Shown here piece after piece: positions 37,019 through 59,778 of a stretch of DNA of 64,000 nucleotides (position 1 is the stretch's first letter; each line of letters begins with the position of its first letter). Location: the NCBI GenBank assembly GCA_020724585.1, contig DYGS01000001.1, positions 486,002 to 550,001 on the forward strand, in the 5' to 3' direction. This DNA comes from Candidatus Microgenomatus sp. (GTDB lineage: Bacteria; Patescibacteriota; Microgenomatia; UBA8517). The position numbers and the translations under genes are program-made. The notes under the pieces are model-generated. The model worked only from the letters and a program-made list of their open reading frames with translations, searched no databases and was not told the DNA's origin.

Positions 37019-37102
37019 GGTGCGGTGCTGGAATTGGTATACAGGTTAGTCTCAAAAACTAATGGTGGCAACACCACGAGGGTTCGAATCCCTCTCGCAC
37101 CA
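37019..37102 (+). tRNA. tRNA-Leu (anticodon CAA), class II with long variable arm
   Basis: Acceptor GGTGCGG/TCGCACC. D-arm CTG-AATTGGTATA-CAG. Anticodon stem TTAGT/ACTAA with loop CTCAAAA, giving anticodon CAA. Variable arm GGTGGCAACACC. T-arm GAGGG-TTCGAAT-CCCTC. Discriminator A. No encoded CCA. Confidence 0.8.
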
Positions 37103-38615
37103 CAAGACAGCGACCTGTCGGGTCGGCGCAAAGCGCCGACCAAGCGTTTCTCCCATCCCCTCGGACAGTTTTGTTTTCTAAAAAGAGGTCTGAGCCGAAG
37201 ATTTTTGCGGCGAAGACCTTTTTAAGTTGCAAGTCCGCAGACTTGGCAACTTGTTCTACTTCTGTAGCCTCAGAAATCCAGTTTTTGAAAGGTTCGATCC
37301 AACTCCCTTGATGTTTTTTGTTGTTAATAATTTGTTCTTCAAAAGTTTTCTTTTGAGATACAAGTTGGAGCTTACTTTCTTGAAATGTTTCTTTATCTAT
37401 AATTTGATCTAAGTAACTATCTAGGAGTAACTTTAGTTTAATATCAATTGCTTCAACTTGTTGTCTTTTCAAATTATTAACCTCAAGGGAGGACTTGGCT
37501 AAATCAGATTCTTCTTTTTTAAGTCTTAATAACATCTGATTAGCCCAAGTCTTTTTCAAAGAATACTTTTTGAGAATATTGGTTAATTGTTGATCAAGAT
37601 CATCTTCTGTGATGTGAGGTTGAGAACAGGAGATTAGCTTATTTTTCTTGGTACAGTGATAATAATGATAAGTTACTTCTCTATTAGTACCTTTGTAGAA
37701 TTTAGTTTTATAATCTCCTGTTATCATCATTCCACACTCACCACACCTTAAAATGCCGTTATATGGCTTAATTGGGTGATCTTGATCTGCTTTTACCCAA
37801 GGGCCATTTCTAATCTTTATAACTTCTTGGACTTTATCAAAAAGTTTCTTTGAAATAATTGGATCGTATCTGCCCTCATATACTTCACCTCCATATTTAA
37901 AAACTCCGTAGTAAAATGAATTTGTAAGTAACTTTTTAGTTTTATCTATCCTTAAATTTTTATTCTTAGAGGTAATAATACCTTTTGATGCTAAAAAGCT
38001 AGAAACTTTCTTTATTTGTATATCTCCTTTGGAATACATTTCAAAAGCCTTAATAATATGTGGTGCAACTTTTTTATTAATAACTATTGATTTATCTCTA
38101 CTGTCATTTAAATATCCAAGAGGAGATCTCCCTGGCATGAAACCGTTTCTAGCTTTTTGCCTTAACCCACGACGAGTGTTTTCACTTAAACTGTCAACAT
38201 AATACTTGCTTTGGCTAAACGAAATTGAAAGCATGAACTTCCCTTGAGGAGTGGGTTCAAACCAAAAGGTATTAAACTTGAGGGCAGATATTTTTCCTGT
38301 ATCTATTAAATAAATAATTCTTCCTCCATCTACTGAGTTTCTTGCCAAACGATCTGGATGCCATGAAATTATTCCAGAAGCACGACCTTTTTCAATACTG
38401 TCTAACATTTTATTAAAAATAGGACGTCCAGGAATCTTGGCAGATTGTTTCTCCACTAATTCTTCTACGATTGTTAGTCCCTCACGTTTGGCAAGTAAAC
38501 GAAGTTCATCAAGTTGACCTTCTATTGATTGTACTTGCATATCCTCAACATCTGTTGATTTACGAGCATACAGGAAAAATTTTTGTGCTATTGGATTATT
38601 TACAATTGTAGCCAT
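37059..38615 (-). CDS. Large serine recombinase (resolvase/invertase catalytic domain + recombinase domain + Zn-ribbon + coiled-coil)
   Basis: N-terminus ...FLYARKSTDVEDMQVQSIEGQ... has the serine-recombinase YxRxST catalytic motif. Also a recombinase domain, a Cys cluster (CGECGMM...HYYHC) and a C-terminal coiled-coil. Start chosen at MATIV (38615), preceded by TATAAAT. The ORF reads through the left repeat into the tRNA, so the true 3' end is uncertain. Confidence 0.8.
   Translation of the reverse strand: MATIVNNPIAQKFFLYARKSTDVEDMQVQSIEGQLDELRLLAKREGLTIVEELVEKQSAKIPGRPIFNKMLDSIEKGRASGIISWHPDRLARNSVDGGRIIYLIDTGKISALKFNTFWFEPTPQGKFMLSISFSQSKYYVDSLSENTRRGLRQKARNGFMPGRSPLGYLNDSRDKSIVINKKVAPHIIKAFEMYSKGDIQIKKVSSFLASKGIITSKNKNLRIDKTKKLLTNSFYYGVFKYGGEVYEGRYDPIISKKLFDKVQEVIKIRNGPWVKADQDHPIKPYNGILRCGECGMMITGDYKTKFYKGTNREVTYHYYHCTKKNKLISCSQPHITEDDLDQQLTNILKKYSLKKTWANQMLLRLKKEESDLAKSSLEVNNLKRQQVEAIDIKLKLLLDSYLDQIIDKETFQESKLQLVSQKKTFEEQIINNKKHQGSWIEPFKNWISEATEVEQVAKSADLQLKKVFAAKIFGSDLFLENKTVRGDGRNAWSALCADPTGRCLVVREGFEPSWCCHH
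37101..37166. repeat. Left copy of a perfect 66-bp inverted repeat flanking the serine recombinase gene
   Basis: 37101..37166 is the exact reverse complement of 38701..38766. Begins at the last 2 nt of tRNA-Leu. GC-rich. Confidence 0.9.
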
Positions 38616-38700
38616 GCTACAATTATTTATACGCCCGTAAATAATCCAAATCAATATATCAAAATATCGCAATATTTTGACTCCTTAATTTGTAGTTTTT

Positions 38701-38766
38701 GTCCGAGGGGATGGGAGAAACGCTTGGTCGGCGCTTTGCGCCGACCCGACAGGTCGCTGTCTTGTG
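38701..38766. repeat. Right copy of the 66-bp inverted repeat
   Basis: Exact reverse complement of 37101..37166. Confidence 0.9.
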
Positions 38767-39030
38767 CCTTTGTATGAAAAGGCACGAACTTATTTTATTC
38801 AAAATTTCTAAAGTACAAAGCATATTTTATCACGAAAGTGACAAACTTGTTTACCACAAAATTTTGATGTGTGAGCGGAGCAACAAGGGAGGGGTTAAAG
38901 GGGAAGGAATTGTTGCGGAGCATCGGGTTCCCGCTCAGCTCCGCTTCGCGGAGCTTCGCTAACCCATATCGTGTGTGCGCTCCAGGCCTCCACTCGCTTC
39001 GCTCGTTTCGGCCTTCCGCTTACCCACTGT
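38763..39030. repeat. 267-bp GC-rich repeat, copy 1 (inverted partner at 59512..59778)
   Basis: ~99% identical in reverse complement to 59512..59778 (one mismatch seen). Abuts the 66-bp repeat with no spacer. The ORFs at 38699..38962 and 59574..59774 are the same sequence read within the two copies. Confidence 0.9.
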
Positions 39031-39129
39031 GTTTTGTTGTTATGCCCAGCCCACGCTTACTGTTAACATAAAATACTCGTTTAACCTTATGAATACTTAT
39101 TTTATACAACTATGCCTGATGTAGCTTTG

Positions 39130-39645
39130 CTATTTCTTCCAAATTCCTATTTTATTTTGTTTTGCTTCTTCTTGTGCTTCTAATAATTGAACTTGATGAA
39201 TAAATGGCTTTCTTTTTTGATATATAACTAATTCAGCCATACCTTTTCGCACAAGTTCAATGGAGATGTTCTTTCCATCAATGATTGGATATGCAAGAAT
39301 TCTTCCAAATTTGTCTGAAGTATAATTGTCATATTCAAGTTTTATTTCTTTACCTTCAACTAAATTTCTATTTGCTTCAGTAGATTCTTTTTCAAAAGGT
39401 TCTCCAGTTTCAGGAGCTGTCATACCAACATATCGTAATACTGTACTGTTAAATAACTCCACAGTGTCTCCATCTATTACTCTTTTAACAACTGCAGTTT
39501 TGGGAAGTTTTGTAATATCATGGCTCTCAATTGCTTCTCTAGAATCTAAAACTTTTCTTATATCATCTTCATATTCTGTACCCTTTGCTAAATCCTTTAA
39601 ATTTTTAAGAAGATCAACTGGAACTAATACGAATTTATTATTCAT
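39130..39645 (-). CDS. Staphylococcal-nuclease (SNase/thermonuclease) family protein
   Basis: ...VIDGDTVELFNS...RYVGMTAPET...KFGRILAY... matches the SNase OB-fold catalytic pattern. Confidence 0.7.
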   Translation of the reverse strand: MNNKFVLVPVDLLKNLKDLAKGTEYEDDIRKVLDSREAIESHDITKLPKTAVVKRVIDGDTVELFNSTVLRYVGMTAPETGEPFEKESTEANRNLVEGKEIKLEYDNYTSDKFGRILAYPIIDGKNISIELVRKGMAELVIYQKRKPFIHQVQLLEAQEEAKQNKIGIWKK

Positions 39646-39674
39646 AATTTAATAATACTACCTTTTAATTATCC

Positions 39675-40955
39675 TTAAAACCAATCCCATTCTGGATTAT
39701 CTACTTCCTCAATTTTACTTTTGTTCATCTTGAACATGTTATCCTCTAAAACTGTTTCCCATGTCCCTTGGTAATAATGTGTTTCAAGTTCTCCATCTAC
39801 CCAGTTTTGAGTTGAAAATTTTACATACACAGTATCTTTAGAATTTTCATACTTTTCTGTATTTATGACTTCAACGTCTAAAATATCTGTAAATCTATTC
39901 GTCCATTCAGTAAAGTTTGTTTTTTCTAAATATTTTGAACTTAACAATTCAAATCCTTTTTCCATTTGTCGTGCTTTTAGATATGTGTAAAAAGCAAAAA
40001 CAGCGTCTTCAGGAGATTTTGTAGGATCGACTTCAATCTTTGTGATTTCTTGATCAGTTAAGTTGTGTAAATTGTTTTTAACATCAAAAGCTGTGATAAA
40101 AAATGATATACCTGCCAAACTTTGTGTATTTACACCGACAAGATTACCACATTGATCAACCAATGGACCACCACTCATTCCTTTAACCAAACTAATATTT
40201 GTTTGAATATATCCTACAAAATCTCTCCTACTTCTTCTGAAATCAATAAAATTACCCTTAACAATTGTTGGATTACCTGTTATCTCAGACCCCAATGGGT
40301 AACCAGCAGAGAGTAATATTTCGTCGTCATGCAAATCATACAAATCTCGAAGCTCATATACTTTCTCGGGATAATTTCCTGCAAGTGTTAAAACTGCAAT
40401 ATCCATATTTTTGTCTCCAACTATCTTTATTGGGGTTTCAAAATGTCCATCAGAAAAAACAACTTTTGGGCTAGGTTCATCTGCGATTACATGGAAATTT
40501 GTTACAACTTCAGTTGGAGTTATAAAAAATCCTGATCCTTCGCCATATCCACCTATAATTCTAGCAACAGATGATTGAAGTTTTGTTTTTACTCCAACAT
40601 CGCACCACAATTTACTGATATCACCATATTGTCTAGTAATGTAATCAGCAATAACTAAAAGTGAAAAGCAAATATATATAGTTAACCCGAACCAAACAAT
40701 AGTTTTTATAAAATTAGTAAATTTCAAAAATGGCCACTTAATCAAGAACCAAAGTAATTTAAATAGCTTAATTAAAAATACTATTAAGAATTTAACAAAA
40801 TAATAAGTTGAATAAGTTAAAAGTTTGATTGGAAATAGATATAAAGGGAAAAGAAGCCGTTTTATATATTTTTTAAACTTATCAAGGAATATAGTAGCTT
40901 TACCATGAAGTATGTTTGAAATTTTATCAATATTTTTGTTTATAATATTTTTCAC
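39675..40955 (-). CDS. Trypsin-like (S1/HtrA-type) serine protease with N-terminal membrane region
   Basis: TNFHVI (His), ...DIAVL (Asp) and GMSGGPLV (Ser) catalytic-triad motifs. N-terminal TM helices. Confidence 0.7.
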   Translation of the reverse strand: MKNIINKNIDKISNILHGKATIFLDKFKKYIKRLLFPLYLFPIKLLTYSTYYFVKFLIVFLIKLFKLLWFLIKWPFLKFTNFIKTIVWFGLTIYICFSLLVIADYITRQYGDISKLWCDVGVKTKLQSSVARIIGGYGEGSGFFITPTEVVTNFHVIADEPSPKVVFSDGHFETPIKIVGDKNMDIAVLTLAGNYPEKVYELRDLYDLHDDEILLSAGYPLGSEITGNPTIVKGNFIDFRRSRRDFVGYIQTNISLVKGMSGGPLVDQCGNLVGVNTQSLAGISFFITAFDVKNNLHNLTDQEITKIEVDPTKSPEDAVFAFYTYLKARQMEKGFELLSSKYLEKTNFTEWTNRFTDILDVEVINTEKYENSKDTVYVKFSTQNWVDGELETHYYQGTWETVLEDNMFKMNKSKIEEVDNPEWDWF

Positions 40956-40960
40956 TTCTC

Positions 40961-43900
40961 TTAATCAACATCATTCGTAGCAATATTAAAGAATCTTTCA
41001 AAGAATCTTGTTAGTTTATCAAGTACATTCTCACGTTTTTTGCTACGTTCGCCCGTTGGAGAAAAACGACCACCAGCAGGTAGTATTTTAGTGATCTCTG
41101 TACCTGTTGTTGCAACATTTCCGTTACGAAAAGCATTTTTAATAAATCGATATGTTGCTTCATGATCAAGATTTTCACTTGTAATAATTTGTTCAAGTTC
41201 TTCTACCTTTTTACCCTCAACAAATTTTTGCCAATCCTCCTCCACTACTGAATGTATATCAAGCGAAGATATAAACTGATTAATAAGATCTTTTTTGTTC
41301 CTAAGTTCGACGCTTGAATCTATAGCCTTATTTATATCAAGCAGTAATTCTTTATTTTTAGTATGATCCTCATGATATTTTTTAATTAAACCTAAGATAT
41401 AATCAATATTGATATCTATTTGTTTGATAAGCTCCATCTCAAAAACAATATCATCATTGACATTTTCCTTATCTACCTCGATATCTTTACGAAATTCGTT
41501 ATAAATATCGATGTAAGCACTGTGATAATCTTGAATATCTCGATCAGTCAAAATCTCGTTTCCTAAAAATTCATCAAAAGTAGCAAGTATATTTCGTACA
41601 CGTAAAATAGCACCATACAATTTAATAAAGTCTTTTTGATTCTGCTCGCCAACAATTCTTTCTCCAACAGGAAACTTTTCAAGTAGTTCTCTAACTAGAC
41701 TTTCATATCCACGTACATCCTTACCATCATCTTTATATCCGAAGTAATAATCATTATAAGCTTTTAAAAGAACGATTCCGCTAGCTTCTTTGTCACCAAA
41801 AAGAGCAATAGATTCATTTGTAGCTTTTTCAAGATTACGAAAACAAATAATATTACCAAAAGTTTTTATGCTATTTAAAATACGATTAGTCCTAGAAAAC
41901 GCTTGTAATAATCCATGCAATCTTAAATTCTTATCCACCCATAAAGTGTTTAGCGTTGTGGCATCAAATCCTGTCAAAAACATATTAACCACAATTAAAA
42001 TATCAATCTCACGATTTTTCATTCTTTCGCTTACATCTTTGTAATAGTTTTGAAATTTGTCGGATGAAGTATCATATGAAGTTCCAAACATCTGATTATA
42101 ATCACCAATAGCTTTTTCTAAGAAGTCTCTTGAGCTAACATCAAGTCCTGTTGTATCTTCTGAGTTTTCATCAATCATGCCATCCAAATCATCATCGTTT
42201 ACACCAAAACTATAAATTGTTGCAATTTTAAGTTGCTTATCGCTTGGAAGCCCTTCTAATTGTTTCTTAAATTCAGCGTAATATTTTTTAGCCACATCAA
42301 TTGTGGAAACAGCAAATATTGAGTTAAATCCTGCAAGTCTTCGATCCTTTAGTTTATAAAAAGTATTGCGCTTTGTTTTTTGATCAAAATGCTCTCTTAT
42401 ATACGTAACAATATTTGAAAGTCTCTCGGGAGCAGCTAAAATTGCCTCACGGTCTATATCACTTACTTTCTTATCTTCAATATTCTCGGCCTCACGAACT
42501 GTAGAAACGTAATCTACTTTAAACGGTAAAACGTTTTTATCAGATATAGCATCAACAATTGTATAAGTGTGTAATTTATCTCCAAACGCCTGTTCTGTTG
42601 TCTTTAAATTTGGTGTACCACCAGACGATGAATTCATGGCAAATATCGGTGTACCCGTAAATCCAAATATATGATAATTTTTAAATGCCTTAGTAATTGC
42701 TGTGTGCATATCACCAAATTGAGAGCGATGGCACTCGTCAAATATTAAAACAATATGATCTTCAAAAATTGTATGACCTGTATTTTTATTTATAAAACGA
42801 TCTAATTTTTGAATTGTGGTAATAATTATTTTCGCTTCTGGGTCACCCAATTGACGTTTCAAAATAGATGTACTTTTGTTACTATTGGCAGCACCTTTTT
42901 CAAATTTGTCATATTCCTTCATTGTTTGGTAATCTAAATCTTTACGATCAACAACAAAAACTACCTTTTTAATGTAAGGTAATTTACTAACAAGTTGCGC
43001 AGTCTTAAAACTTGTTAGTGTCTTTCCAGATCCGGTAGTGTGCCAAACATATCCACCTGCCTCGATTGTGCCTAACTTTTTATAATTTGTACTTATCTCA
43101 ATTCTTTTTAAAATTTTCTCAGTAGCAACTATTTGGTATGGTCGCATCACTAAAAGTAGTCGATCTGTTGTAAACACACAGTATTTAGTAAGGATATTCA
43201 GGAGCGTATGCTTAGCAAAGAATGTTTTAGCAAAATCAACTAAGTCAGTAATAGGACGGTTTGTTGCATCAGCCCACCAACTTGTAAATTCAAAACTATT
43301 ACTTGTTCTCTTTCCATTTTTAACAGAATTTCCGCCATTTTCTTTGACATACTGAAATCTAGTTGTATTACTATAATATTTTGTGTGTGTACCATTTGAA
43401 ATAATAAAAATTTGTATATACTCAAAAAGACCTGATTGAGCCCAAAAACTTTCTCTGTTATACCGATTAATTTGATTAAAAGCCTCTTGGATTGCCACGC
43501 CACGACGTTTAAGTTCGATATGTATAAGTGGCAGTCCATTAACTAGAACCGTAACATCGTATCGATTAGCGCGTTCTCCCTCGTCTGTTGCGTATTGATT
43601 AATAACTTGCAAACTATTGTCATGAATCGAATCTTTTTTAATAAGATAAATATTTTTAATAGCCCCATCATCACAAGTTAAATTTTTAATATAATCTTCT
43701 TGAATTGTAGTTGTTTTCTCAATAATGCTCTGATTTGGATTAGCAATTTCATTTTTGAAAAATCTTTCCCACTCTAAATCAGTAAAATTATATGAATTTA
43801 GTTTTTCAAGTTGTTTACGTAAATTTACAACCAAATCATTTTCAGATTTAATAGAAATATATTCGTATGCCTGTGATACAAGCTGTTTAATAAATTCTTT

Positions 43901-44023
43901 TTCCAGTTCAGCTTCACTTTGATACGTAGATTCACGTAGGTTGTTAGCAATCTCTGAGTAGTCAGCTACAACAGTACTTTCATTATTTTGTGAAACAATA
44001 TTATAATTTTGACTATTCGACAT
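40961..44023 (-). CDS. hsdR: Type I restriction enzyme R subunit
   Basis: 1020 aa. N-terminal PD-(D/E)xK region. SF2 helicase motifs (TGSGKT, DECH). Confidence 0.9.
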   Translation of the reverse strand: MSNSQNYNIVSQNNESTVVADYSEIANNLRESTYQSEAELEKEFIKQLVSQAYEYISIKSENDLVVNLRKQLEKLNSYNFTDLEWERFFKNEIANPNQSIIEKTTTIQEDYIKNLTCDDGAIKNIYLIKKDSIHDNSLQVINQYATDEGERANRYDVTVLVNGLPLIHIELKRRGVAIQEAFNQINRYNRESFWAQSGLFEYIQIFIISNGTHTKYYSNTTRFQYVKENGGNSVKNGKRTSNSFEFTSWWADATNRPITDLVDFAKTFFAKHTLLNILTKYCVFTTDRLLLVMRPYQIVATEKILKRIEISTNYKKLGTIEAGGYVWHTTGSGKTLTSFKTAQLVSKLPYIKKVVFVVDRKDLDYQTMKEYDKFEKGAANSNKSTSILKRQLGDPEAKIIITTIQKLDRFINKNTGHTIFEDHIVLIFDECHRSQFGDMHTAITKAFKNYHIFGFTGTPIFAMNSSSGGTPNLKTTEQAFGDKLHTYTIVDAISDKNVLPFKVDYVSTVREAENIEDKKVSDIDREAILAAPERLSNIVTYIREHFDQKTKRNTFYKLKDRRLAGFNSIFAVSTIDVAKKYYAEFKKQLEGLPSDKQLKIATIYSFGVNDDDLDGMIDENSEDTTGLDVSSRDFLEKAIGDYNQMFGTSYDTSSDKFQNYYKDVSERMKNREIDILIVVNMFLTGFDATTLNTLWVDKNLRLHGLLQAFSRTNRILNSIKTFGNIICFRNLEKATNESIALFGDKEASGIVLLKAYNDYYFGYKDDGKDVRGYESLVRELLEKFPVGERIVGEQNQKDFIKLYGAILRVRNILATFDEFLGNEILTDRDIQDYHSAYIDIYNEFRKDIEVDKENVNDDIVFEMELIKQIDINIDYILGLIKKYHEDHTKNKELLLDINKAIDSSVELRNKKDLINQFISSLDIHSVVEEDWQKFVEGKKVEELEQIITSENLDHEATYRFIKNAFRNGNVATTGTEITKILPAGGRFSPTGERSKKRENVLDKLTRFFERFFNIATNDVD

Positions 44024-45257
44024 ATTCTTTAAATGTTAGCAGTTTATTCCGATAGTATTCATATTGCAATCTACGGGCTTCAAGTTCAGCAGGTAAACCA
44101 ACTGAAATATCATTTACTAACGCGTCAAATTTATCCAAAATCGATACGATTCGATTTTGTTCGGATAAGGATGGAACAGGTACCTTAATTTTAGCAAGAT
44201 CCTTTGCAGAAACATCAATAACTTTAGTACCTTTTGCTAATTTTTTCTTTTCATCGAAAAAATATTTTGTTTGAGTGTAATAACTTAGATATTTTGGATT
44301 TTCCTTGTGTTTGAAAATTGAGGCATGTCCACCAGTAACAATCTCTTCATTTCCAAGCCAGGCGACGGTTTTACAAACGTCTTCAATATTCTCACTAGTA
44401 TTGGTTATTATCAAATCATTCTTTTGTACCCTTTGTAGTCTTTTGGCAGTTTCTCGAGATACAAAAGACTTAGTTTTATCGGCATAAGTACCGTAGTGTG
44501 TGTATATTTGACCATAGTGAATACATCCAACTCCATTTTCTGTAAAATCACTTTTAGGCAAGCCATTACCTCTCACAAATACACCAATATCTCCTAGTGC
44601 CTTTTGTTCTACTTTATCATCAAAAGTCATTAATTTATCTTTGTAATATCTATATTGTTTATTCCTTGCTTCTAATTCTGCTTCTAATTCTGCTTCTAAT
44701 TCTGCTTCTAATTCTGTAAAACTATTAAGAATTTTGACAATCTCATTTTGAATTGTAAGTGGTGGAACGGGAATTTTAAATTTTGTAAATTCCTCTTTTG
44801 TAATTGTTTTGATAGTACTACCACGAGCAATTTGCCTTTCAATATTAAATTTACTTTGTAGTTGATATGCAAAATATTTTTTATTTATCTCAATCTTATA
44901 ACTTTCGAAAATTGCCAGTGTACGATCTACATAACAATCATATTGGGTAATTGCAACTCGGCCTATGCTACCCTGCAAAGTCACAAGTACTGTATCCATT
45001 GGTACAAAAACGCTCATTTTTTGTGCTAACTTTGAGATTTTACGTTTTGTATTGTTAACTAACCGCATATCCTTAGCAACATCTGCAACCTGCACAAAAG
45101 GCTTCGCGTCTTCACCGTCGTACCAATTCTTATCACCATATGGTTGAGGAAATGAACCACGTCGATATGCCGCTATTTCACCTAGCTCCATATATTTCAC
45201 ACCATTAGGACATAACTCTAAAATCAGCTGATCAAATTTGCTTTGGTGCTTTGTCAT
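44013..45257 (-). CDS. hsdS: Type I R-M specificity subunit
   Basis: 414 aa. Two target-recognition domains separated by a central coiled-coil containing (ELEA)x4. Overlaps hsdR by 11 bp. Confidence 0.85.
   Translation of the reverse strand: MTKHQSKFDQLILELCPNGVKYMELGEIAAYRRGSFPQPYGDKNWYDGEDAKPFVQVADVAKDMRLVNNTKRKISKLAQKMSVFVPMDTVLVTLQGSIGRVAITQYDCYVDRTLAIFESYKIEINKKYFAYQLQSKFNIERQIARGSTIKTITKEEFTKFKIPVPPLTIQNEIVKILNSFTELEAELEAELEAELEARNKQYRYYKDKLMTFDDKVEQKALGDIGVFVRGNGLPKSDFTENGVGCIHYGQIYTHYGTYADKTKSFVSRETAKRLQRVQKNDLIITNTSENIEDVCKTVAWLGNEEIVTGGHASIFKHKENPKYLSYYTQTKYFFDEKKKLAKGTKVIDVSAKDLAKIKVPVPSLSEQNRIVSILDKFDALVNDISVGLPAELEARRLQYEYYRNKLLTFKEYVE
44668..44715. repeat. Perfect 12-bp x4 tandem repeat (gcttctaattct) inside the hsdS central conserved region
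   Basis: Four identical head-to-tail units, in frame, encoding ELEAELEAELEAELEA. Confidence 0.9.
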
Positions 45258-45272
45258 AAAAAATATTTATAT

Positions 45273-46598
45273 TTACTCTTCTTTATTTACTCCCAATGTA
45301 ACATCAAGATAACTAACATAGTTTTCTAGATTTCGAATCAATTCATCAAAGAGAACTATATCGATATTATTGAATGTAGTTTTTAGTTTTTTTATTTCCT
45401 TCTCTAATCGTGCTGTTAATTCGTCATTGACACTTTCAGACGTAATATGATCCCTAGAAGAAATTATTAAAATACCTCTTGGCCTATATATTTTATCGTT
45501 TTCAATTAGGGATTTTGTATATTTGTTTTCAATCTGAGTTGTATCTATGTTTTCAGTTCGCAGATCCATGTACTTGTTTAATTGAAAAATAGATTTGTTT
45601 AGATCATGAGAAGGATAATATGAATCCCTTCCTTTCTCTTTTCTAAATAAAATCGTCCGATGTGTTTTAATTTCGATAATATCTATGTTGTTGTAAATAT
45701 CTACAGCTAAAAAATCTGGTCTGGTTTCTTTTTCATAACCATCCATTTCCTTAAATACTATCTGAGAATAAAACTCCTTATAGTTCATTAAAAGAATTCT
45801 TAAGTATCGATCAAAATATAATTGCCAACACGATTCTAAACTTTTTCGCTCTTCGCCAAAGACTTTTTTTGAAAATGATTTGAGTTTAGTTTTATTGCCA
45901 GTGAGTGTCAAAAGTTCAGTACCAACTTTAATAATTTCTCTTATGCTTTCCTTATACAAAGGAAGGGTTTCTTTCATAGTAATCTTGTAAGCTCCATCTT
46001 TAATTTGTTCATCCATGAAATTCTTTATAAATGTTCTATCGCCCTTACTTAGAGCAATATATTTACCTTCAAATCCTTTAACCACATATCCAACATTTGC
46101 AAAAATAGCTGATGTATCAACTTGCGCACTGTCCCTCATGTTAAACTTATCTCTAACTATTTTTGATGTTTTCGTCTTAATCATCGTCACTTTGCTTAAA
46201 TGATCAAGGTAGTTATCAAATTTTCTAACATCAATTATTACAACATCATTGACGTCATATTCAGATGGAATATCACGCATAAAACTTAAGTATTTCTTTT
46301 GAATGTCCTGTAGGCTAGCAAACTCTTTAAGTTCTTTTTTAATCGTAAAGTTTTCAAAAGAAAAGTACTTATCTGTTATCTCTAATGAATTTTTATCCAA
46401 AATTACAGCACAAAAAAAATCATCTCTTTGTTTAACTTCGTCGATAGTATTTCTTTCACCGTCTTGATATACACTATCTTTTCTGTGCACGTTATAAAGC
46501 TTAAGAGTTATATAATTTTCATTTTGTGAAATAACAGGGTCTTCTTTACGATTCTGTTTGAAGCTATCAATTTTTATGTTTAGCGCATTTATATCCAT
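45273..46598 (-). CDS. PD-(D/E)xK nuclease-fold protein inserted between hsdM and hsdS (Shedu/DUF4263-like?)
   Basis: 441 aa. The C-terminal region ...RPDFLAVDIYNNIDIIEIKTH... fits the PD-x(n)-ExK restriction-endonuclease-fold motif. The N-terminal region is unrecognised. Confidence 0.4.
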   Translation of the reverse strand: MDINALNIKIDSFKQNRKEDPVISQNENYITLKLYNVHRKDSVYQDGERNTIDEVKQRDDFFCAVILDKNSLEITDKYFSFENFTIKKELKEFASLQDIQKKYLSFMRDIPSEYDVNDVVIIDVRKFDNYLDHLSKVTMIKTKTSKIVRDKFNMRDSAQVDTSAIFANVGYVVKGFEGKYIALSKGDRTFIKNFMDEQIKDGAYKITMKETLPLYKESIREIIKVGTELLTLTGNKTKLKSFSKKVFGEERKSLESCWQLYFDRYLRILLMNYKEFYSQIVFKEMDGYEKETRPDFLAVDIYNNIDIIEIKTHRTILFRKEKGRDSYYPSHDLNKSIFQLNKYMDLRTENIDTTQIENKYTKSLIENDKIYRPRGILIISSRDHITSESVNDELTARLEKEIKKLKTTFNNIDIVLFDELIRNLENYVSYLDVTLGVNKEE

Positions 46599-46601
46599 AC
46601 A

Positions 46602-48155
46602 TCAACCTTCTATATCTTCGACGATTTTGTCAATTTCAATTCTTAATTCATTTTGTCTTGACACAATTTTTGCAATTTTGGCATTTAATTCTGCTATATT
46701 TACTACTTCTCTTTTGTTTTCTGCTACTACATAACCTGATACCCCAATATTGTAATCATTTTCTGCAACTGCCTTGTTATCGACAAGTTTTGAAAAATAT
46801 TCGATATCTGTACGATCTGTAAATGCTTTTAAGATTTTTAATCTATTTGTTTCACTTAATTTGTTTTTGTTTCCATTTCGCACAAATTCTGAAGATGCAT
46901 CAATGAAAAGTGTTTTGTTATCACTTTTACTTTTCTTTAAGACAATAATACAAGTTGCAATTGTTGTTCCAAAGAATAAATCTGGTGGTAACTGAATTAC
47001 AGTATCAATGTAATTATTATCGATTAAATATTTTCTAATTTTTTGTTCAGCTCCACTACGATATAGAACTCCTGGAAATTCAACAATTGCAGCCGTTCCA
47101 CTTGTTGAAAGCCAAGATAGCATATGCATAGTAAAGGCAAGGTCAGCCTTACTCTTTGGAGCCAATACTCCTGCAGGAGAAAAACGAGGATCGTTTATCA
47201 AAAGTGGATTAGAATCACCTTCCCATTTAATTGAATATGGAGGATTTGAAACTATTGCATCAAACGGCTCATCATCCCAATGTTTCGGATCCGTTAGTGT
47301 ATCACCAAGTGCAACATTGAAATTATTATAATTAACATCATGTAAAAACATATTAATACGACAAAGGTTATAAGTAGTAATATTAATTTCTTGACCAAAA
47401 AACCCTTGACGAACATTTTCTTTCCCTAGAACCTTAGCAAATTTAAGAAGTAAAGATCCAGAACCACAAGCAGGGTCATAAACTTTATTTACTTCTTTTT
47501 TACCAACTGTTGTAATTTCTGCTAGCAGTTCGCTAACCTCTTGTGGTGTATAGAATTCTCCTCCAGATTTACCAGCGTTAGAAGCATACATGGTCATCAA
47601 AAACTCATAGGCATCACCGAACGCGTCAATTGTATTGTCAGAATAATTACCTAATTTAAGATTTCCTATTGCTTCAACTATTTTTGTAAGTTTTTGATTA
47701 CGTTGTTCGACTGTATTTCCAAGTTTGTTTGAATTGACATCAAGATCTGCGAACAAACCCTTCAAATCATCTTCACTATCTGTGCCTTTTGCTGAATTTT
47801 CAATTTTCTTGAATACTAACGATAGAGTTTCGTTTAGATTATTATCTGCACGAGCTTTTTTGCAAACATTTACAAAAAGTTCACTTGGTAATATATAAAA
47901 CCCTTTTTCCTTTATAGTATCTACTCGTCCAAATTCTGCTTCTTTATCTGAAAGGTTTGTATAATCAAAATCTTTATTACCTCCTCTATGTTCATCAGCA
48001 TTTATATAATTAACTAAGTTTTCACTAATAAAACGATAGAATAGCATTCCTAATACATATTGTTTGAAGTCCCAGCCATCAACACTACCGCGCAAATCGT
48101 TAGCAATTTGCCATATTGTACGATGTAATTCTGCACGTTCTTGTTCTTTATTCAT
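46602..48155 (-). CDS. hsdM: Type I R-M N6-adenine DNA methyltransferase subunit
   Basis: 517 aa. HsdM N-domain. SAM motif (DPACGSGSLL). Catalytic NPPY (VSNPPYS). Confidence 0.9.
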   Translation of the reverse strand: MNKEQERAELHRTIWQIANDLRGSVDGWDFKQYVLGMLFYRFISENLVNYINADEHRGGNKDFDYTNLSDKEAEFGRVDTIKEKGFYILPSELFVNVCKKARADNNLNETLSLVFKKIENSAKGTDSEDDLKGLFADLDVNSNKLGNTVEQRNQKLTKIVEAIGNLKLGNYSDNTIDAFGDAYEFLMTMYASNAGKSGGEFYTPQEVSELLAEITTVGKKEVNKVYDPACGSGSLLLKFAKVLGKENVRQGFFGQEINITTYNLCRINMFLHDVNYNNFNVALGDTLTDPKHWDDEPFDAIVSNPPYSIKWEGDSNPLLINDPRFSPAGVLAPKSKADLAFTMHMLSWLSTSGTAAIVEFPGVLYRSGAEQKIRKYLIDNNYIDTVIQLPPDLFFGTTIATCIIVLKKSKSDNKTLFIDASSEFVRNGNKNKLSETNRLKILKAFTDRTDIEYFSKLVDNKAVAENDYNIGVSGYVVAENKREVVNIAELNAKIAKIVSRQNELRIEIDKIVEDIEG

Positions 48156-48213: not shown

Positions 48214-48606
48214 GTGATTAAAAAAGATATCATTTCAAAATATCTACCTTTGCTTGTCTTTATATTTGGTTTCTCAATAATAGCCTTTTTGATTATTTCT
48301 CTTTCCGTAAACGAAAACCCGTCCGCAAAATATGATTTTGGCGACTATACTAGGAATGAGGTTTCTGATATAAACAAGGATATTAAAATAAGAGTATATG
48401 AATTATGCTCAGATGCTCCTAAATCTGATGAATGTAAATTTGCAATCAAACAGTGTTACGAAAATCAAAGTTGTCAAAATATGGTGTCCACATATCAACT
48501 TGCAAGAAATAAAACACCTGAGTTAGATAATTCAGCATTTATAAACGCATCGAAGGAATACATAAACATGTCACGTGCGAAACTAGGATTGCCAATATTA
48601 AAATAA
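48214..48606 (+). CDS. Small Cys-containing hypothetical protein with N-terminal TM/signal
   Basis: 130 aa. Hydrophobic N-terminus. Six Cys residues. Confidence 0.3.
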   Translation: MIKKDIISKYLPLLVFIFGFSIIAFLIISLSVNENPSAKYDFGDYTRNEVSDINKDIKIRVYELCSDAPKSDECKFAIKQCYENQSCQNMVSTYQLARNKTPELDNSAFINASKEYINMSRAKLGLPILK

Positions 48607-48617
48607 TAATTAGGAAT

Positions 48618-48965
48618 TTAAATTTTCTTCCTTAAAATAACATGTTTAAACCATTTTTCTTGAAATTCTGTTAGTTTTTCAATTTCTGAATCTGAAAAGT
48701 CTTGGCCATCTTGCGTAACAATTAATTTGTCATCGTCATCATCTGTTCTTCTGATTACTGCAACGCAAATTCCTTTAGTTTCTGTAATTGGTTTATCTAC
48801 TCCTAAAATATATGCATCTAGTTCTTCTCCATCTGCAGATTTTGTGTTTGGAATATAGCCATAGTTAACTTCATATGTAAAACCATGTTTTGGATGTTTC
48901 GATCCTAATGGTCTGTCAACTACTACATTTACTTTTTGGCCAATGAAAGTTAATGAGTTTACCAT
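48618..48965 (-). CDS. Mini inorganic-pyrophosphatase-like protein
   Basis: 115 aa. The segment ...VNYGYIPNTKSADGEELDAYILGV... parallels the ppa motif [21 protein letters not shown] found at 17724..18260. Confidence 0.4.
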   Translation of the reverse strand: MVNSLTFIGQKVNVVVDRPLGSKHPKHGFTYEVNYGYIPNTKSADGEELDAYILGVDKPITETKGICVAVIRRTDDDDDKLIVTQDGQDFSDSEIEKLTEFQEKWFKHVILRKKI

Positions 48966-49444
48966 AATTTTGTATTATATTCCTTTAGAACTCCTTCTGT
49001 AATTTCTACTTGGTTTGGAAATCTTAAATAATCTTTGAATTCATTTCTTTTAATCCATTTAATTTTTCTAATTTCAGAAGGATCTGGCTTTATATCTGAC
49101 TTCTTGCCTACAAATTTAACTATATATTGTCTTTGGGATTGACCAAGATATAACTGATGTTTTTTAAAAATTCTTTGGATAATTACTTTTAGTGGCCAGT
49201 TGTATGTAACTAAATTTTTACTTTTGAAAACAATTTCAAATTTGTTTGTTCCTAATTCTTCATGAAGTTCTCTTAATAATCCTTGTTCTTCTGTCTCACC
49301 TTTTTCAATTCCACCACCTGAAAAATTCCAATCATTTTCTCCATAGCTTACTAATTGATCAATCAAAAATTCATCTTTGTCATTAAATATAATTGCAATC
49401 GACTTTTTCCTATACAGATGTTCTATCATCCAGTTTTTAATCAT
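48959..49444 (-). CDS. NUDIX hydrolase
   Basis: Nudix box GGGIEKGETEEQGLLRELHEELG. Confidence 0.8.
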   Translation of the reverse strand: MIKNWMIEHLYRKKSIAIIFNDKDEFLIDQLVSYGENDWNFSGGGIEKGETEEQGLLRELHEELGTNKFEIVFKSKNLVTYNWPLKVIIQRIFKKHQLYLGQSQRQYIVKFVGKKSDIKPDPSEIRKIKWIKRNEFKDYLRFPNQVEITEGVLKEYNTKLW

Positions 49445-49473
49445 TTGTTAAAAGTATTATATAATCAAACTAA

Positions 49474-50469: not shown

Positions 50470-50527
50470 GTACCAATCAAAACTTTTTTTCCTGATCAAC
50501 TTAGATAATTTATATTATAATTCCTAC

Positions 50528-51892: not shown

Positions 51893-51906
51893 GATTATAA
51901 TCAATC

Positions 51907-52674: not shown

Positions 52675-52676
52675 GT

Positions 52677-54724: not shown

Positions 54725-54727
54725 AAT

Positions 54728-56547: not shown

Positions 56548-57118
56548 AGTATTTTAGTTTGTCATCCAGTAAATTTTCTAGATGAGCCTCTGTTTTTAAG
56601 AGGGTCTCTTGAAAATTACCATTGTTTTGAATTAATTTGAATTTTTTATTCTGATGATATTTTACGTTCTTGATGCCGTGTTCCTTAATTGATCGTTTAA
56701 AATGTGTGTTAGGATATTCACCACGAACATATATTATCTCCTCTTCTACATCTAATATTACACCGCCAATAACTTTTTCATTCGAGGTTAAATACTGGGT
56801 GTCTGTTTGAACTCCGTCAAATATAGCGTTAACTCCAGTTGAATCGTATGAATCAATCATAAAATCAATAGCTTTATTGAAAATAATATTAGCTTCATTG
56901 TGTTCAAAATTCTCTAATTGATTAACAGGTATGTCTGGCCTAAAAAAACGTAGCAGTTTGCTAATAATGCCTAAGTTAACTGACTGATAAAAATCATATT
57001 TCTTAATAATCTCTTTTGTTAAGGCTGTCTTGCCCGTTGAATTATTCCCAGTTATAAAAAAGATAACAGGTGCACCTTTTTGATTGAGTTTTTTTATTTT
57101 ATCGTTTATTTCGCTCAT
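56537..57118 (-). CDS. P-loop NTPase/kinase-like protein
   Basis: Walker A FFITGNNSTGKTAL. 193 aa, the size of small nucleoside/nucleotide kinases or zeta-toxin-like kinases. Confidence 0.45.
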   Translation of the reverse strand: MSEINDKIKKLNQKGAPVIFFITGNNSTGKTALTKEIIKKYDFYQSVNLGIISKLLRFFRPDIPVNQLENFEHNEANIIFNKAIDFMIDSYDSTGVNAIFDGVQTDTQYLTSNEKVIGGVILDVEEEIIYVRGEYPNTHFKRSIKEHGIKNVKYHQNKKFKLIQNNGNFQETLLKTEAHLENLLDDKLKYYEG

Positions 57119-57797: not shown

Positions 57798-57800
57798 ATC

Positions 57801-59117: not shown

Positions 59118-59511
59118 TAACTGTTCCGTCCTGCCCTATACATTGGCCAAAGGCCAACCACACCTGTAAGCTCTGGAGTGTTTTTGTGTTGGGCAGGATT
59201 CCCTGTTAAGGGAATATTTCAGGAGCAATGATTTTGTTGTTCTGCCTTCTAACCAAGTGCTGTGCCAAAGGCACTTTGTAGCTGTTTTCTAGCACTTGGT
59301 TTAGTTGCCCTAAATGGGCAAATTGCGACTGAAATTGTTCTAGTTTTAGGTACTTTAACGGTAACGGTAGCCGTTACCGTCAGCCGTCAACCGTCATACG
59401 GTAGTTTGGCCGAAAATACGGCTATTTGACGGATTCTGTAAAGTACCTGACGGGTATCCGTCAAGCCCTTCATAAGGGCTAACTACAAATAATCCCCTTT
59501 TCCTTAAAGTG
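59118..59511. ncRNA. Candidate structured non-coding RNA, identity undetermined, contiguous with repeat copy 2
   Basis: ~400 bp with no ORF. GC-rich relative to the flanks. It contains many perfect local stems: cctgccc/gggcagg, accaagtgct/agcacttggt, gtgcc-aaa-ggcac, and ggtaacggtagccgttacc. It is contiguous with the duplicated GC-rich 267-bp segment at 59512..59778. Confidence 0.35.
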
Positions 59512-59778
59512 GGTAAGCGGAAGGCCGGAACGAGCGAAGCGAGTGGAGGCCTGGAGCGCACACACGATATGGGTTAGCGAAGCTCCGCGAAGCGGAGCTG
59601 AGCGGGAACCCGATGCTCCGCAACAATTCCTTCCCCTTTAACCCCTCCCTTGTTGCTCCGCTCACACATCAAAATTTTGTGGTAAACAAGTTTGTCACTT
59701 TCGTGATAAAATATGCTTTGTACTTTAGAAATTTTGAATAAAATAAGTTCGTGCCTTTTCATACAAAGGCACAAAAAC
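59512..59778. repeat. 267-bp GC-rich repeat, copy 2 (inverted relative to 38763..39030)
   Basis: Reverse complement of copy 1. Contains mutually exclusive helices GCTCCGC-gaa-GCGGAGC and GCGGAGC-n16-GCTCCGC. Confidence 0.9.

What the first reader, a model, noticed from the sequence alone, without database searches (positions are those of the whole stretch)
39130..48155. Island left half: secreted SNase-like nuclease and S1 protease followed by a type I R-M system with an embedded PD-(D/E)xK gene
hsdR-hsdS-[441-aa gene]-hsdM are co-directional and overlapping. The inserted gene has a PD-x10-EIK nuclease motif in its C-terminal third. Accessory nuclease or abortive-infection genes (Shedu/DUF4263, PrrC/RloC, Abi) are typically wedged into type I R-M loci at this position. 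The R-M gene composition argues for a defence island.
Basis: partly seen in the sequence, partly recalled or inferred. Interest (0 to 1): 0.55.

Follow-up and report, generated by a model that had tools for sequence, protein, structure and literature searches.

The report
Shedu nuclease inside type-I restriction operon
A known kind of anti-phage nuclease gene (Shedu) sits between the methylase and specificity genes of an EcoR124-type restriction system in a tiny-genome (candidate phyla radiation) bacterium; the finding is confirmed, but this arrangement is already documented.

Summary
They are hsdM, a 441-aa gene, hsdS and hsdR of a type IC (EcoR124-family) restriction-modification system, followed by a membrane-anchored S1 protease and an SNase-family nuclease.

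The 441-aa protein is a Shedu (SduA/DUF4263) nuclease:
- It matches Pfam PF14082 at 4.6e-17, above the cut-off.
- All four PD-(D/E)xK motifs are invariant: E255, D295, E309-x-K311, Q339.
- The AlphaFold model hits E. coli SduA best.

Its N-terminal half of about 215-250 aa is specific to its own family, with no Pfam match, no PDB fold match and only 13 hits in 1.84 billion proteins.

Close orthologues (55-82% identity) occur inside type I systems in 4 of 12 contexts and elsewhere in 8. The gene is therefore an autonomous cassette, not a restriction-modification (R-M) subunit. Shedu genes inside R-M systems are already published (602 cases), so this is a new member of a known kind.

- Only hsdS and hsdR overlap.
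- The motif is PD-x13-EIK.
- The SNase has no signal peptide.
- The SNase and protease are lineage-conserved genes that also occur next to other genes.

Beyond the finding, a 267-nt inverted repeat brackets the 20.5-kb low-GC segment. The adjacent serine-recombinase gene is a cassette with terminal inverted repeats that abuts tRNA 3' ends in 25 loci.

The parts
46602..48155 (-). hsdM, type I m6A methyltransferase subunit (517 aa); first gene of the block
   Evidence: Pfam N6_Mtase 7.4e-112 and HsdM_N 6.7e-19. NCBIfam TIGR00497 hsdM 752 bits against a 243-bit cut-off. The DPACGSG and NPPY motifs are visible in the translation.
45273..46598 (-). sduA: Type 1 Shedu nuclease (441 aa), inserted between hsdM and hsdS
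   Evidence: Pfam SduA_C PF14082 4.6e-17, 63.1 bits against a 27-bit cut-off, residues 253-421. PADLOC SduA 1.4e-17. A profile of the family hits E. coli SduA 8ps4 at 1.9e-19 and B. cereus Shedu 8ti9 at 3e-07. The AF2 model hits 8ps4_A at Foldseek E 1.1e-9.
45288..45842 (-). DUF4263 PD-(D/E)xK nuclease domain of Shedu (residues 253-437). Motifs: I E255, II D295, III E309-x-K311, IV Q339.
   Evidence: All five residues are invariant in 21 and in 64 homologues. They align with the catalytic residues of E. coli SduA. Their spacing parallels B. cereus E204/D249/E264/K266/Q295. pLDDT is mostly 75-90.
45843..46598 (-). Family-specific N-terminal half of Shedu (residues 1-252). It comprises an alpha/beta domain (1-150), a conserved but poorly modelled segment (160-215, invariant D187) and a helical linker (216-250).
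   Evidence: No Pfam family in 16 members. No PDB fold match, best Foldseek E about 1. Only 13 hits in 1.84 billion representative proteins, all from its own family or fragments. Distant Shedu homologues align only from residue 183 or 216 onward.
44013..45257 (-). hsdS specificity subunit (414 aa), with two target-recognition domains
   Evidence: Pfam Methylase_S 1.5e-38, two stretches. The best solved relative is EcoR124II HsdS 7bst at 5e-34.
44667..44716 (-). Perfect 12-nt tandem repeat, 4.2 copies, encoding (LEAE)4 in the central conserved region of HsdS
   Evidence: TRF reports 100% matches, score 100.
40961..44023 (-). hsdR, type IC restriction/translocase subunit (1020 aa); overlaps hsdS by 11 nt
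   Evidence: phmmer against EcoR124I/II HsdR (2w00, 4be7) gives 1e-257. Pfam HSDR_N, SWI2_SNF2, T1R_D3-like and EcoR124_C 4.2e-65. The DECH box is visible in the translation.
39675..40955 (-). Membrane-anchored S1C (HtrA/MarP-like) serine protease (426 aa). It is a lineage-conserved gene lying at the edge of variable defence cargo, not an R-M component.
   Evidence: Trypsin_2 2.4e-20. Hydrophobic segments at 50-77 and 82-107. At least 57% identity in more than 120 clusters. Neighbours differ in L057, L059, L060, L063 and L139.
39130..39645 (-). SNase/thermonuclease-family protein (171 aa) with no signal peptide. It is the conserved neighbour of the recombinase cassette.
   Evidence: PF00565 2.9e-19. 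80-89% identity in more than 120 clusters. It lies near a SerRec homologue in the window, L064, L066, L067, L099, L120, L139 and L148: within about 0.5 kb in most, about 1.7 kb in L067. No hydrophobic N-terminal segment.
38762..39028 (+). Left copy of a 267-nt inverted repeat that bounds the low-GC segment
   Evidence: 99.6% identical to 59774-59508 on the opposite strand. Related copies occur in L064 and L066.
59508..59774 (-). Right copy of the 267-nt inverted repeat; begins 4 nt after the dnaB stop codon
   Evidence: blastn of the two regions.
37101..38766 (-). 1.67-kb cassette: a large serine recombinase gene (ORF 37059-38672) bracketed by perfect 67-nt inverted repeats (37101-37167 and 38700-38766)
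   Evidence: the repeat finder I1, 100% complementary. Pfam Resolvase, Recombinase and Zn_ribbon_recom. The same architecture occurs in L064, L066 and 22 metagenome loci.
37019..37103 (+). tRNA-Leu(caa); its 3' end is overlapped by 2-3 nt by the cassette's inverted repeat
   Evidence: ARAGORN. Rfam RF00005, 55.2 bits.

Best explanation
The block is a complete type IC (EcoR124-family) restriction-modification operon, hsdM-hsdS-hsdR. A self-sufficient single-gene Shedu defence nuclease has been inserted between hsdM and hsdS.

Shown here:
- The gene identities.
- An intact PD-(D/E)xK catalytic set and a Shedu fold.
- Tight co-directional packing, with no terminator-like site at any of the gene junctions.
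- The same Shedu orthologue occurring both inside and outside type I systems.

Inferred:
- The four genes are co-transcribed from upstream of hsdM.
- The R-M enzyme methylates host DNA and cuts unmodified DNA after translocation.
- Shedu acts independently as a second layer. By analogy with the solved enzymes, it would form a tetramer whose nuclease is held inactive by the N-terminal sensor half until an infection-associated nucleic-acid cue releases it to nick or cut invading DNA. In E. coli SduA that cue is a free DNA end.
- The sensor half here is family-specific, so its cue is unknown.

The protease and SNase downstream are conserved lineage genes, not components of the R-M system or of Shedu.
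For: Identity of the embedded gene:
- Pfam, PADLOC and PDB-profile hits.
- Invariant motif residues in 64 homologues.
- AF2 model with mean pLDDT 79; the top nine PDB fold hits are all Shedu structures.

Type IC assignment:
- HsdR against EcoR124I at 1e-257, and the EcoR124_C domain.
- HsdS is closest to EcoR124II HsdS.

Autonomy of Shedu:
- Orthologues of 55-82% identity lie between hsdM and hsdS in the window, L004, L005/L046 and L055/56. In L055/56 an extra RhuM gene shares the slot.
- Orthologues also lie beside AAA_13 ATPases (L052, L010), a type III-like enzyme (L003), a BpuSI-like type IIG enzyme (L007) and GIY-YIG helicases (L008, L009), or among ordinary genes (L054, L006). Sources.
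- Embedded and non-embedded orthologues interleave in a neighbour-joining tree.

Published precedent: 602 Shedu genes inside R-M systems, including type I (Gu et al., PMC10441436).

Mechanism of the solved Shedu enzymes.
Against: - Nothing was tested experimentally.
- The N-terminal half has no detectable relative outside its family, so the DNA-end-sensing mechanism of E. coli SduA cannot simply be transferred.
- In the four embedded loci, Shedu, HsdM and HsdR diverge in step (81/86/78%, 78/85/79%, 67/76/71%). The block is inherited as a unit, and functional interplay is not excluded.
- The consensus promoter scan was uninformative: 33 sites were found against 51 expected. Co-transcription therefore rests on spacing alone.
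Confidence: 0.8

Rival explanations
1. Shedu here is an R-M 'guardian' or amplifier that is functionally coupled to the type IC enzyme. Either it is switched on when phage anti-restriction proteins block the enzyme, as PrrC is in EcoprrI, or it attacks the free DNA ends that HsdR cleavage creates.
For: - It is embedded in a type IC locus, as prrC is in EcoprrI.
- It lies 3 nt after hsdM and in the same frame.
- It is co-inherited with the same R-M lineage in four loci.
- A distant Shedu sits directly after an 85%-identical hsdR in L012.
- E. coli SduA senses free DNA ends.
Against: - 8 of 12 orthologue contexts have no type I system. These include orthologues of 80-82% identity, as close to the window protein as the embedded ones.
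- Shedu works as a single gene in published tests.
- No interaction domain is recognisable.
Confidence: 0.13
2. All six genes (hsdM, Shedu, hsdS, hsdR, protease, SNase) form one multi-component defence system, in which the protease and SNase act as effectors.
For: - The genes are co-directional with gaps of 5-30 nt.
- The protease domain resembles protease effectors in PADLOC models (RT-Protease_XI, LmuA, Avs1b), and the SNase resembles candidate C3a212.
- The protease again follows an unrelated hsdR in L057.
Against: - The protease occurs with five other sets of neighbours, and without R-M genes, in L059, L060, L063 and L139.
- The SNase occurs without the protease or R-M genes in L064 and L066 and tracks the recombinase cassette.
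- The related R-M/Shedu blocks in L004, L046 and L055 lack both genes.
- The PADLOC hits cover only the generic catalytic domains.
Confidence: 0.04
3. The 441-aa protein is a housekeeping repair or recombination nuclease (NucS/EndoMS-like or RecB-like) that happens to lie in the operon.
For: The DUF4263 fold is related to EndoMS/NucS, which appear as weak fold hits (E 0.02-0.03).
Against: - Shedu structures score 5-7 orders of magnitude better.
- The distribution is patchy, across unrelated candidate phyla radiation (CPR) lineages and one Acholeplasmataceae genome.
- Neighbourhoods are variable and mostly defence-type.
- One orthologue is disrupted (L010).
Confidence: 0.03

Closest known systems
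Shedu (SduA, DUF4263): E. coli SduA (PDB 8PS4/8PS5) and B. cereus Shedu (8TI8/8TI9)
   Same: - The C-terminal PD-(D/E)xK nuclease domain carries motifs I-IV.
- The helical linker precedes it.
- Overall size is similar (441 aa against 411 aa).
- It is a single-gene system found in defence islands.
   Different: - The N-terminal half shows no sequence or fold similarity to the E. coli clamp domain or to anything else in the PDB.
- The host is a CPR/Patescibacteria bacterium, a group not listed among the main hosts in the 7,687-protein survey.
- Oligomeric state and trigger were not tested.
Shedu genes encoded within restriction-modification systems (Gu et al., 602 of 5,499 loci, including type I)
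   Same: It is exactly this arrangement: Shedu nested in an R-M operon.
   Different: This is a specific case: a type IC system, the hsdM/hsdS junction, and a family-specific N-terminal region. I could not compare that region with the authors' N1-N59 domain clusters.
EcoR124I/EcoR124II (type IC R-M)
   Same: - HsdR is homologous over residues 12-832 (1e-257) and has the EcoR124_C domain.
- HsdS is closest to EcoR124II HsdS.
- HsdS carries a 4-residue repeat in its central conserved region.
   Different: - An extra gene sits between hsdM and hsdS.
- The repeat is (LEAE)x4, rather than the TAEL x2 or x3 that I recall for EcoR124I/II (own knowledge).
- The recognition sequence is unknown.
PrrC anticodon nuclease embedded in the type IC locus EcoprrI; RloC
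   Same: An accessory defence gene sits inside a type IC operon.
   Different: These are a different protein family: an ABC-ATPase plus tRNA anticodon nuclease. SduA_C was the only Pfam hit for the 441-aa protein at E <= 0.01 and NCBIfam gave none. PrrC is physically silenced by its R-M enzyme; no such dependence is indicated here.
[quoted passage not shown]
   Same: An independent restriction-type system is nested inside a type I R-M cluster and acts on its own.
   Different: TgvAB is a two-gene DUF262/DUF1524 type IV enzyme, not a DUF4263 protein.
Tycheposons and SCCmec-type elements (tRNA- or site-specific islands moved by large serine recombinases); compared with the island backbone, not with Shedu
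   Same: A large serine recombinase (best NCBIfam matches CcrB, XisF and CcrA, all below their cut-offs) sits beside a tRNA gene at the edge of a cargo island.
   Different: - The recombinase gene is itself bracketed by perfect 66-70-nt inverted repeats.
- The repeat abuts the 3' ends of at least 18 different tRNA species.
- Two copies occur on one 3.9-kb contig.
- The island is bounded by inverted, not direct, 267-nt repeats.

Membership tests
Shedu / SduA (DUF4263, PF14082) | Match to the SduA_C/DUF4263 profile above the curated cut-off | tested here: met
   63.1 bits against a 27-bit cut-off, E 4.6e-17, profile positions 2-159 of 159. Seven PADLOC SduA models hit, the best at 1.4e-17.
Shedu / SduA (DUF4263, PF14082) | PD-(D/E)xK motifs I-IV (E ... 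D ... ExK ... Q) intact | tested here: met
   E255, D295, E309, K311 and Q339 are invariant in 64 sequences and align with the E. coli SduA residues. Their spacing matches B. cereus E204/D249/E264/K266/Q295.
Shedu / SduA (DUF4263, PF14082) | Fold of the nuclease domain matches solved Shedu structures | tested here: met
   Foldseek: 8ps4_A at E 1.1e-9 (prob 1.00) and 8ti9_C at 1.8e-4. The top nine hits are all Shedu.
Shedu / SduA (DUF4263, PF14082) | N-terminal regulatory domain of a described class (Type 1A sPC4/Whirly, 1B NRF1, 1C NRF2, 1D-1G) | tested here: inconclusive
   An N-terminal region of about 250 aa is present, which makes this Type 1 rather than Type 2. It has no Pfam match, no PDB fold match and no relatives outside its own family. 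The published N1-N59 models were not available for comparison.
Shedu / SduA (DUF4263, PF14082) | Homotetramer; nuclease activity; anti-phage protection | not testable with these tools
   This needs multimer modelling or biochemistry, and plaque assays.
Type IC restriction-modification (EcoR124 family) | HsdR with N-terminal nuclease, SF2 motor and an EcoR124-type C-terminal domain, closely related to EcoR124I HsdR | tested here: met
   phmmer against 2w00 at 1e-257. PF04313, PF18766, PF22679 and PF12008 at 4.2e-65.
Type IC restriction-modification (EcoR124 family) | HsdM (m6A methyltransferase) and HsdS (two target-recognition domains) both present and intact | tested here: met
   TIGR00497 at 752 bits. 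Methylase_S in two stretches, and 7bst at 5e-34.
Type IC restriction-modification (EcoR124 family) | Short peptide repeat in the HsdS central conserved region that sets the spacer length | tested here: met
   A (LEAE)x4 repeat is encoded by a perfect 12-nt x4.2 tandem repeat at 44667-44716. Its effect on the spacer was not tested.
PrrC / RloC anticodon nucleases | ABC-type ATPase N-domain plus anticodon-nuclease C-domain | tested here: not met
   Searches of the 441-aa protein returned no ATPase or PrrC-type hit: SduA_C was the only Pfam hit at E <= 0.01, only SduA models hit in PADLOC, and NCBIfam returned none at E <= 0.001.
Secreted staphylococcal-type thermonuclease | SNase fold plus an N-terminal signal peptide | tested here: not met
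   The SNase domain is present (PF00565, 2.9e-19). There is no hydrophobic N-terminal segment: the best 19-aa window is below 1.6, and the N-terminus reads MNNKFVLVPVDLLKNLKDLAKGTEYEDD. No dedicated signal-peptide predictor was available.
S1C (HtrA/MarP-like) serine protease | Trypsin-like fold with a His/Asp/Ser triad, and a membrane anchor | tested here: met
   Trypsin_2 at 2.4e-20. The TNFHV, MDIAVL and GMSGGP motifs are visible in the sequence. There are two hydrophobic segments. All NCBIfam HtrA and MarP matches fall below their cut-offs, so it is not an equivalog of any of them.

The most novel reading that the evidence does not exclude
The R-M/Shedu block is cargo of an undescribed island system in Woesebacteria-like CPR genomes.

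The first component is a multicopy 1.6-1.7-kb cassette. It consists only of a large serine recombinase gene and perfect 66-70-nt terminal inverted repeats, and it sits exactly at the 3' ends of many different tRNA genes.

The second component is the pair of 267-nt inverted repeats bounding the 20.5-kb low-GC segment. Together with the cassette, they would drive inversion, exchange or mobilisation of defence cargo.

A weaker variant of this reading is that the family-specific N-terminal half of this Shedu reads out the activity or inhibition of the type IC enzyme.
Probability: 0.25. Interest if true: 0.6.

Novelty: new member of a known kind. Interest (0 to 1): 0.3.

Why it matters
For the finding itself the value is modest.
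- It adds a candidate phyla radiation (CPR) example of layered defence, type IC restriction plus Shedu, in genomes of about 0.75 Mb.
- It defines a Shedu clade whose sensor half has no known relative. That clade is a useful test of whether DNA-end sensing generalises across Shedu.
- It corrects the idea that the neighbouring SNase and protease belong to the system.

The by-products may matter more.
- A serine-recombinase cassette associated with tRNA 3' ends, with long perfect inverted repeats, could explain rearrangement and island turnover in CPR genomes.
- If it is site-specific, it would add large serine recombinases with new target sites.

Tried and rejected
1. PrrC, RloC and Abi assignments for the 441-aa gene are rejected. 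SduA_C was the only Pfam hit at E <= 0.01, only SduA models hit in PADLOC, and NCBIfam returned nothing.
3. 'Secreted SNase' is rejected on hydrophobicity.
4. The protease and SNase as R-M accessories are rejected on comparative context.
5. The promoter and terminator scan was uninformative, with fewer promoter-like sites than in shuffles.
6. Rfam found only the tRNA. Nothing matched the GC-rich repeat.
7. PADLOC on the recombinase and the right half of the island gave only weak, domain-level hits.
8. A tRNA-derived direct repeat marking the far end of the island was not found. An inverted repeat was found instead.
9. 78 of the 100 metagenome hits to the inverted-repeat pattern were chance matches in high-GC contigs and were discarded.
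10. The L055 orthologue could not be placed in the tree, because it does not translate under table 11.


Full report
**1. What is there**

Six ORFs lie head-to-tail on the minus strand between 39130 and 48155. In transcription order they are:
- 46602-48155: HsdM. N6_Mtase 7.4e-112; TIGR00497 752 bits against a cut-off of 243.
- 45273-46598: a 441-aa protein.
- 44013-45257: HsdS. Methylase_S, two stretches.
- 40961-44023: HsdR. HSDR_N, SWI2_SNF2, T1R_D3-like and EcoR124_C.
- 39675-40955: a Trypsin_2 protease.
- 39130-39645: an SNase-family protein.

HsdR matches EcoR124I/II HsdR at 1e-257, and HsdS is closest to EcoR124II HsdS. The system is therefore type IC.

Gene junctions:
- hsdM and the 441-aa gene are 3 nt apart, in the same frame (TGA-TGT-ATG).
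- The 441-aa gene and hsdS are 15 nt apart.
- hsdS and hsdR overlap by 11 nt.
- hsdR and the protease are 5 nt apart.

GC content is 0.29-0.32 from 39 to 58 kb, against 0.33-0.40 outside that range.

**2. The embedded gene is Shedu**

- Residues 253-421 match Pfam SduA_C (PF14082) end to end at 4.6e-17, 63 bits against a 27-bit cut-off. Seven PADLOC SduA models also match.
- A profile of 21 homologues hits the solved E. coli SduA (8ps4, 1.9e-19) and the B. cereus Shedu nuclease domain (8ti9, 3e-07), and nothing else in the PDB.
- E255, D295, E309, K311 and Q339 are invariant in 64 homologues. They correspond to motifs I-IV, which Gu et al. give as E204/D249/E264/K266/Q295.
- An AlphaFold2 model has mean pLDDT 79, with the nuclease domain mostly at 75-90. 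It finds E. coli SduA first (Foldseek E 1.1e-9), and the top nine hits are all Shedu structures. EndoMS/NucS follow at E about 0.02.

**3. The N-terminal half**

- Residues 1-150 model confidently (pLDDT about 90) as an alpha/beta domain.
- Residues 160-215 are among the most conserved in the family, with D187 invariant, yet they model poorly.
- Residues 216-250 are helical, like the Shedu linker.
- This half has no Pfam family in 16 members.
- It has no PDB fold match, with best E about 1.
- In an exhaustive HMMER search of 1.84 billion representative proteins it has only 13 hits, all from its own family or fragments of it.
- More distant Shedu proteins align only from residue 183 or 216 onward.

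The protein is therefore a Type 1 Shedu in the sense of Gu et al., with a sensor I cannot assign to a class. Unclassified N-termini are common in that survey: 59 novel clusters and 1,355 'Type 1X' proteins.

**4. Is Shedu coupled to the R-M system?**

Close orthologues (55-91% identity) come from Patescibacteria/CPR genomes assembled from metagenomes, plus one Acholeplasmataceae genome.

I could read twelve distinct contexts.

Four have the gene between hsdM and hsdS of the same R-M lineage:
- the window;
- L004;
- L005 with L046;
- L055/56, where a RhuM gene shares the slot and a 387-aa gene sits before hsdR.

Eight do not:
- beside AAA_13 ATPases (L052, L010);
- beside a type III-like enzyme and a LexA-like protein (L003);
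- beside a BpuSI-type IIG enzyme with methyltransferases (L007);
- beside GIY-YIG/Schlafen-type helicases (L008, L009);
- among ordinary genes (L054, L006).

Non-embedded orthologues at 80-82% identity are as close to the window protein as the embedded ones, and they interleave with them in a neighbour-joining tree.

The gene therefore behaves as an autonomous cassette that has landed in a known cargo slot of type I operons. Gu et al. already report 602 Shedu genes inside R-M systems, including type I. PrrC in EcoprrI and TgvAB in Vibrio VPI-2 are other embedded systems.

Within the four embedded loci, Shedu, HsdM and HsdR diverge in step. This shows block inheritance and leaves some room, which I put at about 0.13, for functional interplay.

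**5. Mechanism**

Shown here:
- a complete type IC enzyme set with intact motifs;
- an intact Shedu nuclease;
- tight packing, with no terminator-like site at any of the junctions.

Inferred:
- The genes are co-transcribed from upstream of hsdM.
- The R-M system restricts unmethylated DNA.
- Shedu independently senses an infection-associated nucleic-acid feature through its N-terminal half and then nicks or cuts DNA. The analogies are end-sensing by E. coli SduA and release of N-terminal auto-inhibition in B. cereus Shedu.
- The cue is unknown, because the sensor half is unrelated to the solved ones.

**6. The protease and the SNase**

The protease:
- It has an S1C catalytic domain, with visible TNFHV, MDIAVL and GMSGGP motifs.
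- It has two strong hydrophobic segments and a C-terminal domain with no Pfam match.
- It is at least 57% identical in more than 120 clusters. Those that carry names are labelled Woesebacteria or Patescibacteria group.
- Its neighbours differ each time and are mostly defence-type:
  - an unrelated hsdR (L057);
  - a type II R-M, a ThsB-like TIR protein and DUF3800 (L059);
  - GmrSD-HNH and PDDEXK_1 (L060);
  - a reverse transcriptase, PDDEXK_1 and a different Shedu (L063);
  - a HARE-HTH protein and FtsK-gamma (L139).
- A Nudix gene 65% identical to 48959-49444 lies upstream of the protease in L059, in the same order and orientation as in the window.
- I read the protease as a conserved gene bordering a variable defence slot, not as an R-M component.

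The SNase:
- It is 80-89% identical in more than 120 clusters.
- It has no signal-peptide-like segment.
- It lies near a homologue of the serine recombinase in the window and seven other loci, within about 0.5 kb in most and about 1.7 kb in L067. It occurs without the protease or R-M genes in L064 and L066.

**7. Island structure, outside the stated coordinates**

The recombinase cassette:
- The large serine recombinase gene (37059-38672) is bracketed by perfect 67-nt inverted repeats at 37101-37167 and 38700-38766. The left arm overlaps the 3' end of tRNA-Leu(caa) by 2-3 nt.
- The same architecture occurs in L064 at tRNA-Trp and in L066 at tRNA-Gly. The arms are 100% identical within a genome but only 77-81% identical between genomes.
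- A metagenome scan with the conserved arm core gave 22 genuine low-GC loci. In all 18 where the tRNA-side arm is on the contig, that arm lies within about 8 nt of a tRNA gene's 3' end, and a recombinase homologue is detected in all 22.
- Counting the window and L064, 18 different tRNA species are neighbours.
- One 3.9-kb contig carries two cassettes (L127), and there are truncated remnants (L075, L115).
- This looks like an IS-like element built on a large serine recombinase. I found no description of it in a limited literature search. Tycheposons are the nearest published analogue.

The large inverted repeat:
- A 267-nt inverted repeat, 99.6% identical, lies at 38762-39028 and 59774-59508. 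It brackets exactly the low-GC 20.5 kb.
- Its GC-rich core folds better than shuffled sequence on the minus strand (z = -2.8) but not on the plus strand (z = -0.27). It has no Rfam match.
- Whether the segment inverts or moves was not tested.

**8. Verdict**

It is wrong or unsupported about secretion of the SNase and about the SNase and protease belonging to the system.
- This is a new member of a known kind, and interest for the finding itself is low to moderate.
- The recombinase cassette and the large inverted repeat are the parts most worth a separate look.

Noticed in passing
window 37101-38766 (arms 37101-37167 and 38700-38766); also L064, L066, L097, L099, L120, L127, L139 and others: A large serine recombinase gene is bracketed by perfect 66-70-nt inverted repeats. 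The outer arm abuts or overlaps the 3' end of a tRNA gene. This is seen in the window, in two genome loci and in 22 metagenome loci, next to 18 different tRNA species. Two copies lie on one 3.9-kb contig (L127), and there are truncated remnants (L075, L115). The arms are identical within a genome but 77-81% identical between genomes. It looks like an undescribed IS-like element.
   Followed up: yes
window 38762-39028 and 59508-59774: A 267-nt inverted repeat (99.6% identical) brackets exactly the low-GC 20.5-kb segment that holds the SNase, the protease, the R-M/Shedu block and the right-half genes. Each copy starts with the hairpin GTGCCTTTGTATGAAAAGGCAC. The right copy begins 4 nt after the dnaB stop codon. 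In L066 the related element also occurs as an inverted pair, there flanking the recombinase and four tRNAs.
   Followed up: partly
window 38860-39035: The GC-rich core of the 267-nt repeat is up to 97% identical to copies in other genomes. It contains a UUCG-loop hairpin. It folds with z = -2.8 on the minus strand (the strand of the SNase and recombinase) but z = -0.27 on the plus strand. There is no Rfam match. It could be a structured RNA or a recombination site.
   Followed up: partly
window 44667-44716 (in hsdS): A perfect 12-nt tandem repeat (4.2 copies) encodes (LEAE)4 in the central conserved region of HsdS. In EcoR124I/II the copy number of the analogous repeat changes the spacer of the recognition site (own knowledge). 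This could therefore be a slippage-driven specificity switch.
   Followed up: no
window 39675-40955; L057, L059, L060, L063, L139: The conserved membrane-anchored S1 protease lies beside defence-type genes in all six contexts examined. It directly follows two unrelated hsdR genes, and in L063 it lies between a PDDEXK_1 gene and a different Shedu. Either it marks an insertion hotspot or it is itself associated with defence.
   Followed up: partly
window 39130-39645 with 37059-38672: An SNase-family nuclease paired with a serine recombinase recalls the RP4 parCBA operon. In that operon ParA is a resolvase, and ParB is an SNase-like nuclease (own knowledge, not checked here). The SNase reads RYVGMTAPE where staphylococcal nuclease has D40 (own knowledge), so one Ca2+ ligand may be replaced.
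   Followed up: no
L055/L056 (protein P0046): This Shedu orthologue does not translate under table 11: it stops after 47 codons. Its database protein has W where every other family member has a conserved G (for example ANVWYIVKGFEW, RPRW). This pattern suggests UGA = Gly (code 25). The same R-M/Shedu block would then also exist in a recoded CPR lineage.
   Followed up: partly
window 46596-46604: The hsdM stop codon (TGA) is followed by TGT and then by the Shedu ATG, all in the same frame. Read-through of TGA would fuse HsdM to Shedu. The frame relationship is not conserved in L004.
   Followed up: no
window 45954-46121 (Shedu residues 160-215): This is the most conserved stretch of the N-terminal half, with D187 invariant and T162, N168, G170, Y171, K174, Y180, S184 and F190 nearly so. 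It has the lowest model confidence (pLDDT 42-60). It may be an interface or a ligand site that orders only in the oligomer.
   Followed up: no
window 48214-58541: The right half of the low-GC segment holds a small membrane protein, a pyrophosphatase-like gene, a Nudix gene, an APH-type kinase, an Hsp70-like ATPase, a SAM methyltransferase, FolE2 GTP cyclohydrolase, five ORFs without a Pfam match, one with only a weak sub-threshold ATPase match, and a histidine phosphatase. PADLOC gives only weak domain-level hits. This may be a nucleotide- or base-modification module.
   Followed up: partly
window 59778-62363: The replicative helicase DnaB carries an intein with a LAGLIDADG homing-endonuclease domain.
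   Followed up: no
L012 2-5411; L063 9314-10693: Distant Shedu genes (32-34% identity) also sit in equivalent places. One lies directly after an hsdR that is 85% identical to the window's, next to a serine recombinase (L012). The other lies directly after the conserved protease (L063).
   Followed up: no
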